Below, piece by piece: positions 9,734 through 21,921 of a stretch of 64,000 nucleotides of DNA. The stretch is from Escherichia phage vB_EcoS-26175I. Made by a program: the position numbers and the translations under genes. Within the stretch, counting starts at the first letter, position 1; every line of letters starts with the position of its first letter. The stretch lies in the sequence record NC_133255.1. One strand, 5' to 3'. The notes under the pieces are model-generated. The model had not been told where the DNA came from and did not search any database. It saw only the letters and a list, made by a program, of their open reading frames with translations.

Positions 9734-9809
9734 TGGTGGAGTCACTCAGAATTGAACTGAGTTCCACTGCTTGCAAGGCAGTAAGTTTAACCAAATAACC
9801 TATGACCCC
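9734..9809 (-). tRNA. tRNA-Ala (anticodon TGC)
   Basis: T-arm ctcag-aattgaa-ctgag; anticodon stem actgc/gcagt, loop ctTGCaa. Confidence 0.7.
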
Positions 9810-9814
9810 GAATT

Positions 9815-9893
9815 TGGTGGAGAATAAGAGATTCGAACTCTTCTGATATCCTCGGTGCAAGCGAGGTGTCCACTCCAAGCAGACCCATTCCCC
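9815..9893 (-). tRNA. second tRNA with anticodon TGC (Ala-like), 7-nt variable loop
   Basis: T-arm aagag-attcgaa-ctctt; anticodon stem cctcg/cgagg perfect, loop ctTGCac; atypical positions 8-9. Confidence 0.45.
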
Positions 9894-10831: not shown

Positions 10832-10905
10832 TGGTACTCGGTGATAGAATCGAACTATCGCAACCGCCGTGTAAAGACGGGGTTCTCCCATTAAACTAAC
10901 CGAGT
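10832..10905 (-). tRNA. tRNA-Val (anticodon TAC)
   Basis: perfect acceptor actcggt/accgagt, T-arm gatag-aatcgaa-ctatc, loop ttTACac. Confidence 0.7.
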
Positions 10906-10909
10906 AATT

Positions 10910-10987
10910 TGGTGGATTGCCTGGGATTCGAACCCAGAACTGACGGATTAAAGGTCCGCTACTCTTATCCAGTTGAGCTAGCAATCC
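10910..10987 (-). tRNA. tRNA-Lys (anticodon TTT), loop ccTTTaa with C33
   Basis: perfect acceptor and T-arm (ctggg-attcgaa-cccag); anticodon loop has C at position 33. Confidence 0.55.
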
Positions 10988-11451
10988 AATTTTTCTACTA
11001 ATAATTTAAAAGCATCTAGTACAGGTACTTCAAACCATTCTCCAGATACTCTATAATCTTTAAGAAGATTATGTAATTCTTTCTCTGTACGTCTTTTATC
11101 AGACGAAAATCTGAAATGGTATAGCTTGTAGTCTCTATTAGGTGAATAAGTTTGATAACTTGCTAACCTCTCATTCACATCTATAGTCATACCTATTTTA
11201 TACATGCCTGGCCATGCTGGATTACCAATTACATATACAAAACCTTCCGTTATAGGTATTTTATGCTCCCTTTTATACTTTAAGAGATTTAAGGCTGCCA
11301 TTCGATAACAGAATCTAAACTCTGAAGTTTTTAACTTACCTTCTTTACCCGAAATTTCGTTATATTTGCTCATATAAGCTCTTATGAGCTTATCATCTAT
11401 AATGAAGTTATCAGGAAGGTTTAAGGCAGCTAAAACTTTATTAATTAGCAT
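10978..11451 (-). CDS. T5orf172-type (GIY-YIG-like) domain protein
   Basis: motif GFVYVIGNPAWPGMYKIGMT...R...Y typical of the T5orf172/MUG113 GIY-YIG-like fold. Confidence 0.5.
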   Translation of the reverse strand: MLINKVLAALNLPDNFIIDDKLIRAYMSKYNEISGKEGKLKTSEFRFCYRMAALNLLKYKREHKIPITEGFVYVIGNPAWPGMYKIGMTIDVNERLASYQTYSPNRDYKLYHFRFSSDKRRTEKELHNLLKDYRVSGEWFEVPVLDAFKLLVEKLDC

Positions 11452-11626
11452 AGACTTCCTTAATAGAATAAACTTTTAAGTAAGGGTGATTAATACCAAA
11501 TTCCGCCATCACTTCGTTTTCATCTTTACCGTAATGGGCTAGTGGATACTTCTTACGATCTTTGCTAGAACGTAGATCACTTACTTTTAAACGAAATAAT
11601 TTCATTTCGAAATCCTTCTATTAAAT

Positions 11627-11788: not shown

Positions 11789-12100
11789 AATATTCTTTGT
11801 TAACTCACTTTATAAAATATATTATACAGATATTTAAGCATAATAGCAAATGAGTTTTTAATAAATTTACTTATTGCGTAGGCCACCTCACGCTTCAAAC
11901 GCTCTGCTGACAAAGAAGTTTGCGAGACTTCTCTTAAATGCCAGAATAGACCCGCCGATCTATCGGAACCTACTCAATAAGTAAACTTTCGTTTACCTAC
12001 ACCTACCTGGTCGGGAGGATTTTCAGCGACTAGAACCGGCCGGAAACTCATCGCCTTGTTTATCTAGGAGTCCGTTCTCTAGGAAGCAGAAACCTAAATT

Positions 12101-12312: not shown

Positions 12313-12390
12313 TGGTACACCTGCTGAGATTCAAACTCAGGATCTTCCGATTAAGAGTCGGTTGCTTTAAGTCAACTAAGCTACAGATGC
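12313..12390 (-). tRNA. tRNA-Lys (anticodon CTT)
   Basis: T-arm ctgag-attcaaa-ctcag; D-arm gctt/aagc; loop ctCTTaa. Confidence 0.55.
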
Positions 12391-12930
12391 ATTTATATCT
12401 TTATAGGACTTACCAGCCAGTCTTGTATAGCGTTTTCGCAAACCATTATCTGACATGCCCAATTCTCTAGAAGCTCTAGACCATGAGTAATTTTTAACCC
12501 AGTACTCTATTTGTTCTACAGTAATTTCTTGTGGATTTTGACAGTGCTGTTTGCAGTAACTAGCTCTTTTAGCTATTTCTTTGTTGCAAATAGGACAGAA
12601 ATTTTTATCTGAACTTAATCCACGTTCTTCTATAGTTTTGAGAATATGATCAGCTTTACTTCGTACAATCAGATTTTCAAGAGAGAAATTTAGTTTATTT
12701 GTATCATCATGATCTACTTCTAAGTCAGAACTCAAAGATGGTAGATCTTTGTATACTCTCGCTAATACTCTGTGTAATAGAAGATGTTTTGATTTTCCAT
12801 TATGTTGAACAGTAAAGAAAGGATACCCAGAAGTATTAATCTGTATTGAAAGTATACGATTAACTTTAGTACTAAATACTTCCCCAGTCTCACTTATTAA
12901 GTATTCTGGATATTCGGGTATTTCTTTCAT
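12376..12930 (-). CDS. free-standing HNH homing endonuclease
   Basis: 184 aa; HNH-type motif LLLHRVLA...EVDHDDTNKLNFSLENL; embedded in tRNA array. Confidence 0.6.
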   Translation of the reverse strand: MKEIPEYPEYLISETGEVFSTKVNRILSIQINTSGYPFFTVQHNGKSKHLLLHRVLARVYKDLPSLSSDLEVDHDDTNKLNFSLENLIVRSKADHILKTIEERGLSSDKNFCPICNKEIAKRASYCKQHCQNPQEITVEQIEYWVKNYSWSRASRELGMSDNGLRKRYTRLAGKSYKDINASVA

Positions 12931-13246: not shown

Positions 13247-13332
13247 TGGCGGGCCGTGTAGGAGTTGAACCTACTTTATCCTTGCGGATACGGATTAACA
13301 GTCCGGCGCTTAAACCGTTCAGCCAACGGCCC
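13247..13332 (-). tRNA. tRNA-Asn (anticodon GTT) with unusually long variable arm
   Basis: 83-nt body, perfect acceptor gggccgt/acggccc, T-arm gtagg-agttgaa-cctac; loop ctGTTaa; variable hairpin atcc-ttgc-ggat. Confidence 0.5.
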
Positions 13333-13339
13333 TAAAATT

Positions 13340-13415
13340 TGGACGACCGCATGAGATTCGAACTCACATAAGGAGGTTTTGCAGGCCTCCGCCTAAGCCA
13401 TTCAGCCAACGGTCG
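13340..13415 (-). tRNA. tRNA-Cys (anticodon GCA)
   Basis: T-arm atgag-attcgaa-ctcac; anticodon stem ggagg/cctcc; loop ctGCAaa. Confidence 0.65.
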
Positions 13416-13593
13416 ATTTATCTTGTTTTTCGAGATTAGTAAATTCTAAGTCTTTGGAATGCCCTATAGATCTAGCATAATAACCATCTCCAGCATCGTA
13501 GCCTGATTTACCACACTCACACATCTTAAACTCCCGATAACGAGTGAATATATGCTCAGAACCACAACACTTAAATTTAACTAACATTTTCAT
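13402..13593 (-). CDS. hypothetical Cys-containing small protein
   Basis: 63 aa ORF. Confidence 0.3.
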   Translation of the reverse strand: MKMLVKFKCCGSEHIFTRYREFKMCECGKSGYDAGDGYYARSIGHSKDLEFTNLEKQDKSTVG

Positions 13594-20952: not shown

Positions 20953-21921
20953 ATTGATTCCTTTTGTTAGGTATTTTTAAGAACTCTCGTAAAAGTCCTT
21001 AAAGATACCCGGCGGTAGGTAGGGTCAGCCCCCTCAGATTAAGCTCTGCAGCCCTTCCGTCAGACAATATCTTCCAGTTTAAGTCAGGGTGACTTTGTGG
21101 TTATTCAGCTAAGGCTGATCGGCAGCTCTTAGGTCATGACTCCTCGTCGCTCTTTACTCACCGGCTAGGAAGTTATCTCGAGTTCTTCCTAGCTCTTTAG
21201 TCGTGCCATTAAGGTGCCTTCTAAGAGACTTACCTTTTCCCACTTTCGATTTGGGCATGTATCAGGTAAGGGTAGCCAAATCAGCATCCTAGTCCTACGG
21301 GGTCTCATCAAATTACATACCACCGCTTTTCGATATGTAATGCCCATGTCTATACGGGAGAAGAAAATGGGCATCTTTCTCTTCGTCTGATAGCTTGAAA
21401 AACGACTCCTCATGGAGGAAAAACTTCACTATCTAGGCTAAAGCCTAAAGTTCTTCTTTAATCCGGCAAAGCAAAACCGTAGTATATACTTTTCAGGAAT
21501 GGTTGGTTAGTCTGGAACCAACTACCGCGTGGTTTTGGCAGTGCACAGCTGCCTGCGATTGCTTCGCCATTAGAAGCACCAGTTATCCAACTCTTTCCGA
21601 CCGTGGGACTCGAACCCACATCTTCAGGCGGTGAAGCCCTAATAATACCTATTATACTAGGACGGCAGTGTTGTTACATAAGTGGTTTCGGCACCCCACT
21701 AACATAAACTAGAGAAGAGTTTACGAGATTTCGGGACAGCTCCCGAGTTTTCCGCAGATTTTCAGTTCCCTATCAATAGCAATAAGCGTTAGCTCGTAGC
21801 CTCTCTCAGAGTACTTACTAGTCTCCAACTCACCGACTCTATTCAGTGGAATAGCTATCCTAGTAGGAGTCACTAAACTCACTCAGCGTAATCGGCTCGC
21901 TGTTCTCTAATTTATGAATCT

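What the first reader, a model, noticed from the sequence alone, without database searches (positions are those of the whole stretch)
10978..11451. T5orf172-type GIY-YIG-like domain protein adjacent to tRNA genes
The ORF carries the GIY-YIG-like signature (VYVIGN...YKIGMT) of the T5orf172/MUG113 family. Its function in phages is poorly defined; it could be a nuclease or homing-type element, and its 3' end overlaps tRNA-Lys(TTT).
Basis: partly seen in the sequence, partly recalled or inferred. Interest (0 to 1): 0.45.

Follow-up and report, generated by a model that had tools for sequence, protein, structure and literature searches.

The report
Homing-type nuclease gene fused to tRNA-Lys
This is a real but unannotated gene in a T5-like coliphage for a small T5orf172 (GIY-YIG-type) nuclease that behaves like a selfish "homing" gene; the kind is known, but it always travels with its own private version of the neighbouring tRNA-Lys gene.

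Summary
Window 10978..11451 (-) is an intact 157-aa ORF that matches Pfam MUG113 (1.3e-18) and T5orf172 (6.7e-15). Its predicted C-terminal domain is closest to SLX1 GIY-YIG nuclease domains. Its stop codon lies 10 nt inside tRNA-Lys(UUU).

The window is Escherichia phage vB_EcoS-26175II (Epseptimavirus). That record does not annotate the ORF, but orthologues elsewhere are labelled "putative homing endonuclease".

- **Distribution:** the gene is present in 85 of 383 related phage records at exactly this slot. The slot is empty in T5, S131 and S113.
- **Selection:** it is under strong purifying selection (pN 0.09, pS 0.72).
- **Linkage:** it is linked in 85 of 86 records to one tRNA-Lys allele with an unusual C33 anticodon loop.
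- **Paralogues:** two-domain relatives, including T5.069, end at or inside a tRNA 5' end in 10 of 14 slots. Relatives matching only the nuclease domain do not (0 of 78).

Best reading: a free-standing homing endonuclease gene of the T5orf172 family that targets the tRNA gene region, functionally like T4 SegB. Nuclease activity and homing are inferred, not shown. The kind is known. The tRNA-cassette linkage is the modestly new part.

The parts
10978..11451 (-). T5orf172/MUG113-domain protein gene, 157 aa. It is not annotated in the source record.
   Evidence: ORF. Pfam and PHROG matches. AF2 model has pLDDT 87.4. No CDS at this position in MK907268.1.
11254..11451 (-). N-terminal domain (aa 1-66): a three-helix bundle specific to the tRNA-associated subfamily. 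It is the presumed DNA-recognition module.
10981..11253 (-). C-terminal T5orf172 (GIY-YIG-like) catalytic domain, aa 67-157.
10910..10987 (-). tRNA-Lys(UUU), the allele linked to the nuclease gene. Its anticodon loop is C32-C33-UUU-A-A. It supplies the ORF's TAG stop codon (tRNA positions 8-10).
   Evidence: ARAGORN. Rfam 59.9 bits. 85 of 86 records with this allele also carry the gene. Linkage is 9/9 against 0/15 in fetched loci.
11441..11605 (-). Upstream 54-aa ORF, the homologue of T5.065 (phrog_6221). Its last 11 nt overlap the nuclease gene start, and its conserved 3' end carries the Shine-Dalgarno AAGGA (11457-11461).
   Evidence: T5 synteny. In T5, S131 and S113 this ORF abuts tRNA-Lys directly.
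11821..11849 (-). Promoter-like site (TTGCTA-17-TATAAT) upstream of tRNA-Pro. It is the probable start of the transcript tRNA-Pro, tRNA-fMet, 54-aa ORF, nuclease ORF, tRNA-Lys, tRNA-Val.
   Evidence: Consensus scan, which is a pattern match only. The position corresponds to the annotated T5/BF23 promoter P13a. No terminator-like site was found between it and tRNA-Val.
10832..10905 (-). tRNA-Val(UAC). This is the conserved downstream flank where homology with nuclease-less phages resumes.

Best explanation
The ORF encodes a small two-domain site-specific DNA endonuclease. It has an N-terminal three-helix recognition domain and a C-terminal T5orf172 domain of the GIY-YIG superfamily. It acts as a free-standing homing endonuclease gene embedded in the tRNA operon of a T5-like phage.

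Proposed mechanism:
1. During mixed infection with a relative that lacks the gene, the enzyme cuts that genome in or beside its tRNA-Lys(UUU) gene.
2. Repair from the gene-carrying genome copies the nuclease gene together with its own tRNA-Lys allele.
3. That allele differs from all other alleles and is presumably not cut.

The mobile unit is therefore nuclease gene plus tRNA-Lys, about 10910-11447, inserted between the T5.065 homologue and tRNA-Val.

The gene has no stop codon of its own and ends on the TAG at tRNA positions 8-10. RNase P processing of the co-transcript would therefore remove the stop codon and probably keeps expression low.

Shown here: the gene, its domains and fold, the conserved motif residues, the presence/absence pattern, the linkage, purifying selection, and the subfamily-wide abutment to tRNA genes. 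Inferred: nuclease activity, the target site, homing, and regulation through processing.

For: **Sporadic distribution at a fixed slot.**
- 85 of 383 phage records with the flanks carry the gene.
- The slot is empty, with the 54-aa ORF abutting tRNA-Lys, in T5, S131 and S113.
- Both states occur in Epseptimavirus and in Tequintavirus.
- The BF23 curators numbered the gene 'ORF trn 2.12.1', that is, as an extra ORF next to trn 2.12.

**Linkage to the flanking tRNA.**
- The identical 78-nt tRNA-Lys allele is found in 9/9 gene-positive and 0/15 gene-negative fetched loci.
- 85 of 86 GenBank records with the allele also have the gene.
- The tRNA is 100% identical across genera, whereas the nuclease gene is only 78% identical at the nucleotide level.

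**Conversion-like recombinant.** Phage Elw has an empty slot. Its tRNA-Lys has the acceptor stem of the nuclease-less type, but positions 8-65 are identical to the linked allele.

**Decay stage.** KKP 3953 has a scrambled gene and tRNA.

**Still functional.** pN 0.092 against pS 0.721.

**Subfamily behaviour.**
- Two-domain homologues end at or inside a tRNA 5' end in 10 of 14 independent slots, spanning Demerecviridae, Straboviridae and metagenomic contigs. All 14 lie in tRNA clusters.
- None of the 78 homologues matching only the C-terminal domain does so.
- T5.069 (47% identical) is linked 8/8 to a private tRNA-Asn allele.

**Precedents.** T4 SegB is a GIY-YIG homing endonuclease in a tRNA cluster that cuts tRNA genes, and cleavage of its mRNA during tRNA maturation was proposed to limit its expression (PMC2330249).
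Against: - No cleavage activity, target site or homing has been measured for this protein or any close homologue.
- The second motif Tyr (Y84) is not invariant.
- The two orthologue lineages are as diverged as their genomes: pS 0.72 for the gene against 0.58 for the neighbouring ORF. The polymorphism is therefore old, and could be explained by vertical descent with repeated loss plus ordinary recombination.
- tRNA-Lys is hypervariable among nuclease-less phages too. Selection on the tRNA itself, for example by PARIS or PrrC, could create allele classes independently of any nuclease.
- Other small ORFs in this compact region also overlap tRNA 5' ends, such as 13402..13593 with tRNA-Cys. The overlap on its own is therefore weak evidence.
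Confidence: 0.62

Rival explanations
1. It is a domesticated nuclease kept for the phage's benefit rather than a selfish homing gene. For example, it could exclude or degrade competing T5-like phages or satellites, as ICP1 Odn does. Alternatively it could promote recombination or amplification of the tRNA anti-defence locus, as SegB does in T6.
For: Purifying selection is strong, and the haplotype is deeply conserved in two genera. Precedents are Odn (PMC8263062) and SegB-driven amplification of tRNA loci (PMC13096335). The linked tRNA isoacceptors Lys(UUU) and Asn(GUU) are targets of the PARIS defence, and phage copies of them counter PARIS (PMC12409363).
Against: This largely overlaps with the homing model, because the enzymology is the same. 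No satellite-type recognition domain was found. No tandem amplification of the locus was seen in the window or in any fetched locus. Only 22% of relatives carry the gene, which is unexpected for a strongly beneficial gene.
Confidence: 0.15
2. It is a passive accessory gene in an old, stable polymorphism. The gene and tRNA-Lys haplotype is simply one of several ancient allelic cassettes shuffled by general recombination, and the protein plays no part in the movement.
For: Divergence of the gene between genera is similar to that of the neighbouring ORF. Many tRNA genes in this region exist as deep allele classes even without a nuclease gene.
Against: This does not explain why 10 of 14 two-domain paralogue slots abut a tRNA 5' end in unrelated phage families, while homologues matching only the C-terminal domain never do. 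It does not explain the retained catalytic-motif residues. It also does not explain the Elw conversion-like chimera.
Confidence: 0.12
3. It is a non-cutting DNA-binding regulator, a domesticated endonuclease like the PLE protein CapR, which controls transcription of the tRNA operon.
For: InterPro/UniProt name the domain 'T5 Orf172 DNA-binding'. CapR is a domesticated relative of T5orf172 homing endonucleases (PMC10448857). The gene sits inside a tRNA operon.
Against: The Tyr, Arg and Glu residues at GIY-YIG motif positions are invariant. The catalytic domain is the more constrained half: pN 0.048 against 0.154 for the N-terminal domain. The operon runs without this gene in most relatives.
Confidence: 0.06
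4. It acts on RNA, meaning the adjacent pre-tRNA or host tRNA, rather than on DNA. This would explain the strict tRNA association.
For: The only support is the association with tRNA genes.
Against: The structural neighbours found here that are GIY-YIG-type enzymes (SLX1/HIGLE, I-TevI, PD-T4-3) are DNA nucleases, as is the characterised T5orf172 relative Odn. The downstream tRNA differs from slot to slot (Lys, Asn, Leu, Pro, Glu, Tyr, Asp, Ser), which fits genomic insertion-site behaviour better than a single RNA substrate.
Confidence: 0.05

Closest known systems
T5.069 of phage T5 (YP_006897.1, 172 aa). By its length, this is presumably the ORF that gave the T5orf172 domain its name.
   Same: It is 47% identical over both domains and has the same two-domain architecture. 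It lies in the same tRNA region. Its stop codon lies inside the downstream tRNA (24 nt into tRNA-Asn). It is linked 8/8 to a private tRNA allele.
   Different: It is a paralogue in a different slot, between tRNA-Cys and tRNA-Asn, which is empty in this window. It is linked to tRNA-Asn(GUU), not to tRNA-Lys(UUU). It is equally uncharacterised experimentally.
T5orf172-family homing endonuclease genes of ICP1 and other phages, and the Odn nuclease (Barth et al. 2021 and 2023; PMC8263062, PMC10448857)
   Same: It has the same catalytic domain family, a free-standing intergenic gene, and sporadic distribution. The nuclease activity of the domain has been shown for Odn. T5-like phages were listed there as rich in such genes.
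   Different: About 87% of those genes pair the domain with CapR, DUF723 or DUF4397 zinc-finger modules. This protein instead has a 66-aa three-helix domain with one Cys and no such Pfam match. Those genes cluster near terminase, ribonucleotide reductase and capsid genes, and no tRNA association was reported.
T4 SegB, a GIY-YIG homing endonuclease in the T4 tRNA cluster (PMC2330249, PMC13096335)
   Same: It is a free-standing GIY-YIG-superfamily gene inside a phage tRNA cluster. Its target lies in tRNA genes, and flanking tRNA genes are co-inherited. Its ORF ends right at a downstream tRNA, so tRNA maturation cuts the mRNA at the stop codon.
   Different: SegB has a canonical GIY-YIG domain at the N-terminus with the DNA-binding region C-terminal. 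Here the order is reversed and the domain belongs to the T5orf172 branch. There is no detectable sequence relationship beyond the superfamily. SegB activity has been demonstrated, whereas activity here has not.
[quoted passage not shown]
   Same: They lie in the same genomic neighbourhood and have the same selfish-element lifestyle. Reduced expression through primary-transcript processing has been proposed for them. The window has an HNH ORF (12376..12930) that overlaps tRNA-Lys(CUU) in the same way.
   Different: They have an unrelated catalytic fold (His-Me finger).

Membership tests
Pfam T5orf172 (PF10544) / MUG113 (PF13455) | Score above the curated gathering threshold of the family HMM | tested here: met
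   T5orf172 scores 55.9 bits against a cutoff of 20. MUG113 scores 67.8 bits against a cutoff of 22.3.
GIY-YIG nuclease superfamily | A small alpha/beta fold: a three-stranded sheet flanked by helices | tested here: met
GIY-YIG nuclease superfamily | Catalytic motif residues: Tyr in strand 1, Tyr in strand 2, Arg in helix 1, a metal-binding Glu, and Asn | tested here: inconclusive
   Y73, K85, G87, R95, Y99, E123 and E138 are invariant in 16 homologues, but Y84 is not. Their equivalence to I-TevI Y6, Y17, R27, E75 and N90 is inferred from motif order and secondary structure, not from a residue-level superposition.
GIY-YIG nuclease superfamily | Match to the canonical GIY-YIG catalytic domain model (PF01541) | tested here: not met
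   No PF01541 hit even at E<=1. No PDB sequence hit with the family profile at E<=10. The relationship is visible only at the fold/clan level.
GIY-YIG nuclease superfamily | Metal-dependent DNA cleavage | not testable with these tools
   This has been shown only for the distant T5orf172 relative Odn (PMC8263062).
Free-standing homing endonuclease gene | Presence or absence at one fixed intergenic site among otherwise syntenic close relatives | tested here: met
   85 of 383 records are filled. The slot is empty in T5, S131, S113 and Elw. Both states occur in both genera.
Free-standing homing endonuclease gene | Co-inheritance (co-conversion) of flanking markers with the gene | tested here: met
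   The private tRNA-Lys allele is found in 85 of 86 records and in 9/9 against 0/15 loci. SNPs cluster in the last ~40 bp of the upstream ORF when compared with Stitch. Elw has a chimeric tRNA. This shows linkage. The process of conversion is inferred.
Free-standing homing endonuclease gene | Site-specific cleavage of the gene-less allele and resistance of the gene-carrying allele | not testable with these tools
   The alleles differ at many positions, but the recognition site is unknown.
Free-standing homing endonuclease gene | Nuclease-dependent biased inheritance in mixed infection | not testable with these tools
   This needs phage crosses.
Seg-type GIY-YIG endonucleases (SegA-G) | An N-terminal canonical GIY-YIG domain followed by a C-terminal DNA-binding region | tested here: not met
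   The catalytic domain is C-terminal (aa 67-157) and belongs to the T5orf172 branch. The protein works like SegB but is not a Seg family member.
ICP1-type T5orf172 homing endonucleases | Zinc-finger DNA-binding modules (CapR, DUF723 or DUF4397) beside the T5orf172 domain | tested here: not met
   There is no such Pfam hit at E<=1. The N-terminal domain is an all-helical bundle with a single Cys.
Anti-phage defence systems with a T5orf172 domain (PDC-S57, PD-Lambda-1) | Full-length match to, and the genomic context of, a bacterial defence gene | tested here: not met
   PADLOC hits cover only the shared domain (aa 68-151 against models of 212-496 positions), and the gene lies in a lytic phage tRNA operon.

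The most novel reading that the evidence does not exclude
The N-terminal-domain-bearing T5orf172 proteins may be a dedicated class of homing endonucleases specific for tRNA genes. In this reading their mobile unit is 'nuclease gene plus a private tRNA allele'. By cutting rival tRNA alleles they would drive allelic replacement of phage tRNA genes.

They would thereby spread variant tRNAs that escape host tRNA-cleaving defences. Examples would be this tRNA-Lys(UUU) with C33 and C41, and the T5 tRNA-Asn(GUU) used in the PARIS rescue experiments. A selfish nuclease would then be the vehicle for horizontal spread of anti-defence tRNAs.
Probability: 0.25. Interest if true: 0.65.

Novelty: new member of a known kind. 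Interest (0 to 1): 0.38.

Why it matters
On its own the gene is an ordinary, already recognisable selfish nuclease gene, and the main practical point is that the source record failed to annotate it.

The wider pattern is more useful. A specific two-domain T5orf172 subfamily is tied to the 5' ends of tRNA genes across several phage families, and each copy is locked to a private tRNA allele. Phage tRNA-Lys(UUU) and tRNA-Asn(GUU) are now known to neutralise the PARIS defence, and tRNA-Lys is the PrrC target.

If these nucleases move tRNA alleles between phages, they would help explain the striking allelic diversity of T5-like tRNA genes. They would also offer a tractable system (T5, BF23 and the BASEL phages) for testing how selfish elements spread counter-defence determinants.

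Tried and rejected
- **NCBIfam:** no hit.
- **PDB sequence search with the family profile:** no hit at E<=10. Only fold comparison links the protein to solved GIY-YIG structures.
- **PADLOC:** domain-level hits only (PDC-S57, PD-Lambda-1). I rejected the defence-system reading.
- **Other T5orf172 paralogues in the window:** I scanned all six-frame ORFs with a family HMM and found none.
- **T5 'RNA3' as a relic tRNA-Asn:** I tested whether the tRNA-like RNA downstream of the T5.069-linked tRNA-Asn is a relic of the long tRNA-Asn found in nuclease-less phages. There is no meaningful similarity, so I rejected this.
- **IMG/VR relatives:** these gave almost only homologues matching the C-terminal domain. 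They served as a negative control rather than as orthologues.
- **Recent cross-genus transfer:** a signature of recent transfer would be the gene being much more similar than its flanks. I did not see this. The gene is as diverged as its neighbour, or slightly more.
- **Target site:** it could not be deduced from allele differences, because the linked allele differs from the others throughout the tRNA body.

Full report
**Source and observation**

The 5-kb region around the finding is 100% identical to Escherichia phage vB_EcoS-26175II (MK907268.1; Demerecviridae, Markadamsvirinae, Epseptimavirus), a T5-like phage. The finding lies in the phage's tRNA region, where ARAGORN finds 31 tRNA genes, all on the minus strand.

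The ORF is exactly as described: 10978..11451, minus strand, 157 aa. It matches three profiles well above threshold:
- Pfam MUG113: E 1.3e-18, 67.8 bits, cutoff 22.3.
- Pfam T5orf172: E 6.7e-15, 55.9 bits, cutoff 20.
- phrog_5032: E 2.8e-52.

The overlap with tRNA-Lys(UUU) is confirmed by two methods. ARAGORN gives 10910..10987. The Rfam tRNA model gives 10913..10987 at 59.9 bits. The ORF's TAG stop (10978-10980) is tRNA positions 8-10.

At the other end, the ATG is embedded in the last codons of a 54-aa ORF (11441..11605, phrog_6221, the T5.065 homologue). That ORF's conserved 3' end supplies an AAGGA Shine-Dalgarno five nt upstream of the ATG. BF23's curated record annotates a ribosome-binding site at the same place.

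The source record has no CDS here. The same is true of an HNH ORF at 12376..12930 that overlaps tRNA-Lys(CUU).

**Protein anatomy**

An AlphaFold2 model built on 16 homologues is confident (pLDDT 87.4, pTM 0.75) and shows two domains.

The canonical GIY-YIG Pfam model does not match. No PDB sequence matches the family profile. The link is therefore at superfamily and fold level only.

Residues at the motif positions are invariant among the 16 homologues: Y73 (strand 1), K85 and G87 (strand 2), R95 and Y99 (helix 1), E123 (helix 2), and E138-W139. Y84 varies. Which Glu is the metal ligand is inferred, not shown.

The domain has no Cys-rich motif. The CapR, DUF723 and DUF4397 zinc-finger modules that accompany about 87% of T5orf172 homing endonucleases are absent.

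**What is known about the family**

The T5orf172 domain of ICP1 Odn (Gp88) cuts DNA in vitro and in vivo, and is inactivated by E180A at the conserved Glu (PMC8263062). Barth et al. 2023 treat T5orf172 genes as homing endonuclease genes and note that they are abundant in T5-like phages. That paper does not mention tRNA association (PMC10448857).

Orthologues of this very gene are annotated 'putative homing endonuclease' in BASEL phages TrudiRoth and IrmaTschudi, and 'putative GIY-YIG nuclease family protein' in JLBYU43.

**Distribution**

A query of the gene plus both flanks (tRNA-Val to tRNA-fMet, 873 bp) matches 383 phage records. Only 85 of them cover at least 80% of it, meaning they contain the gene at this slot.

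Fetched loci fall into four clear states:
- Filled, about 881-883 bp.
- Empty, about 432 bp, with the 54-aa ORF stop directly abutting tRNA-Lys, as in T5, S131 and S113.
- A Stitch-type state, in which a different 105-aa Cys-rich ORF (phrog_6053) sits between tRNA-Val and tRNA-Lys.
- One locus (L017, 576 bp) with a smaller, unexamined insert of about 150 nt between tRNA-Lys and tRNA-Val.

Filled and empty states both occur in Epseptimavirus and in Tequintavirus. BF23's curators numbered the gene 'ORF trn 2.12.1', that is, as an extra ORF next to trn 2.12.

**Linkage to a private tRNA-Lys allele**

All nine filled loci carry one identical 78-nt tRNA-Lys(UUU). None of the 15 unfilled loci does. 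Those loci carry at least ten other sequences in three deep allele classes with compensatory stem changes. By contrast, the neighbouring tRNA-fMet and tRNA-Val differ among loci at only one to a few positions.

In GenBank phages, 86 records contain the allele. With a 201-nt query spanning the tRNA and the gene's 3' end, 85 of those 86 contain both.

The single exception is informative. Phage vB_EcoD-Elw has an empty slot and a chimeric tRNA. Both acceptor strands are of the gene-less type, while positions 8-65 are identical to the linked allele. This is what a short gene-conversion tract that did not reach the nuclease gene would look like. It is one case, and selection on the tRNA itself is an alternative explanation.

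Two further records show damaged copies:
- KKP 3953 carries a scrambled, decayed copy of both the gene and the tRNA.
- Eps7 has a one-base frameshift in the gene.

**Selection and age**

Between this phage and the Tequintavirus VAH1, the gene is 78% identical at the nucleotide level, with pS 0.72 and pN 0.092. The catalytic half is the more constrained: pN 0.048 against 0.154 for the N-terminal domain.

The neighbouring 54-aa ORF has pS 0.58. The gene is therefore maintained by selection. The two lineages are about as old as the genera, and there is no sign of recent cross-genus transfer. The linked tRNA is nevertheless 100% identical across the genera.

**A subfamily-wide rule**

T5.069 of T5 (172 aa, presumably the eponymous ORF172) is 47% identical over both domains. 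It sits between tRNA-Cys and tRNA-Asn, a slot that is empty in this window, and its stop lies 24 nt inside tRNA-Asn. It is linked 8/8 to a private 78-nt tRNA-Asn. The 7 loci lacking it have quite different 83-86-nt tRNA-Asn genes.

Across fetched loci, homologues that include the N-terminal domain end at or inside the 5' end of a same-strand tRNA in 10 of 14 independent slots:

| Downstream tRNA | Offset of ORF end (nt) | Phage or locus |
|---|---|---|
| Lys-UUU | -10 | this window's type |
| Asn-GUU | -24 | T5.069 |
| Leu-UAG | -15 | L010 |
| Pro-UGG | 0 | L019 |
| Pro-UGG | 0 | Sugarland |
| Glu-UUC | -22 | Pontus |
| Glu-UUC | -15 | S124 |
| Tyr-GUA | -15 | Stenotrophomonas phage IME13 (T4-like) |
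| Asp-GUC | 0 | metagenomic contig L030 |
| Ser-GGA | -43 | My1 |

The other four (L092, Quinn, PS2, AV110) still lie inside tRNA clusters.

As a control, I examined 78 IMG/VR T5orf172 proteins that match only the C-terminal domain. None abuts a tRNA, and only one has any tRNA within about 1.4 kb. These counts are not phylogenetically independent, but the contrast is stark. It ties the tRNA association to the N-terminal domain.

**Mechanism proposed**

The enzyme most likely recognises DNA in or next to the cognate tRNA gene of genomes that lack it and cuts there. It is then copied in, with its own presumably resistant tRNA allele, by recombinational repair. The cassette here is about 10910-11447.

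This is how T4 SegB works in the T4 tRNA cluster. SegB recognises the T-loop motif of tRNA genes and drives preferential inheritance of the region (PMC2330249). SegB homologues are statistically associated with tRNAs, and SegB can amplify tRNA anti-defence loci (PMC13096335).

The gene lies in a tRNA operon. A promoter-like site at 11849..11821 corresponds to T5 P13a, and no terminator-like site was found before tRNA-Val. RNase P cleavage at the tRNA 5' end would therefore remove the stop codon. The same argument was made for SegB and for the T5 HNH endonucleases.

All of these steps are inferred. None was measured here.

**Rivals**

- **Domesticated, beneficial nuclease.** Possible roles are competitor exclusion or locus amplification. 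This is compatible with the strong purifying selection and differs mainly in who benefits.
- **Passive old polymorphism.** This fits the age of the lineages. It does not explain the subfamily's tRNA rule, the conserved catalytic residues, or the Elw chimera.
- **Non-cutting regulator or RNA-directed enzyme.** These are less likely for the reasons given in the rival entries.

**Side observation on the tRNA**

The linked tRNA-Lys has anticodon loop C32-C33-U-U-U-A-A, with C33 instead of the near-universal U33 (the near-universality is my own knowledge), and stem bases U39-C40-C41.

BF23's identical tRNA carries the record note that it becomes an effective amber suppressor when given a CUA anticodon. 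The allele is therefore functional according to that record.

PARIS AriB cuts E. coli tRNA-Lys(UUU) between positions 40 and 41, and also cuts tRNA-Asn(GUU). T5's own tRNA-Lys escapes through U39A and A41C (PMC12409363). The allele here has C41 but keeps U39. PrrC cleaves tRNA-Lys in the anticodon loop.

Whether the nuclease-linked alleles differ in resistance to these defences is untested. This is the basis of the more novel reading.

**Verdict**

The gene is a member of a known kind, a T5orf172-family free-standing homing-type endonuclease. It is unannotated in this record but recognised in orthologues.

Interest is modest. The linkage to private tRNA alleles and the tRNA-specific two-domain subfamily are, as far as the searched literature shows, not described, and they are worth a short follow-up.

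Noticed in passing
window 10910-10987 (-): The tRNA-Lys(UUU) linked to the nuclease gene has anticodon loop CCUUUAA (C33 instead of U33) and U39-C40-C41. It is 100% identical across two genera. tRNA-Lys in phages lacking the gene is hypervariable. This may be relevant to escape from PARIS or PrrC.
   Followed up: partly
window 12376-12930 (-): A 184-aa HNH/NUMOD4 homing-endonuclease-like ORF (phrog_59, E 9e-27) is also unannotated in the source record. Its last 15 nt overlap the 5' end of tRNA-Lys(CUU) at 12313-12390. This is the same arrangement as the T5orf172 gene.
   Followed up: partly
window 13247-13332 (-): tRNA-Asn(GUU) is 86 nt long with a long, class-II-like variable arm. Phages carrying the T5.069 paralogue instead have a quite different 78-nt tRNA-Asn with mismatches in the anticodon stem.
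   Followed up: partly
L116 (Escherichia phage vB_EcoD-Elw, OR621298.1) 1201-1278: This phage has an empty slot but a chimeric tRNA-Lys. The acceptor stem is of the gene-less type, and positions 8-65 are identical to the nuclease-linked allele. It looks like a short gene-conversion tract.
   Followed up: yes
L110 (Salmonella phage KKP 3953, OR067837.1) 375-795: This locus is scrambled. Fragments of the T5orf172 gene are interleaved with pieces of two different tRNA-Lys alleles, and no intact gene or tRNA-Lys remains. It is either a decayed cassette or an assembly of a mixed population.
   Followed up: partly
L005 (Salmonella phage Stitch) 808-1125: In many Epseptimavirus genomes the adjacent slot between tRNA-Val and tRNA-Lys holds a 105-aa Cys-rich ORF (phrog_6053, unknown function) plus a 47-aa ORF. 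The Val-Lys-fMet segment is therefore an insertion hot spot.
   Followed up: partly
window 21594-21667 (-): ARAGORN calls a 74-nt tRNA with anticodon UCA ('tRNA-SeC'). This would be a possible UGA-reading, suppressor-like tRNA, lying apart from the main cluster.
   Followed up: no
window 13402-13593 (-): A 63-aa Cys-rich ORF (phrog_7042) overlaps the 5' end of tRNA-Cys (13340-13415) by 14 nt. ORF/tRNA overlaps are thus not unique to nuclease genes in this compact region.
   Followed up: no
L003 (phage Eps7, NC_010583.1) 2323-2718: The Eps7 orthologue has a one-base length difference that truncates the annotated ORF to 131 aa. This is either a frameshift or a sequencing error.
   Followed up: partly
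window 9734-9893 (-): There are two adjacent tRNA-Ala(UGC) genes (76 and 79 nt), 5 nt apart.
   Followed up: no
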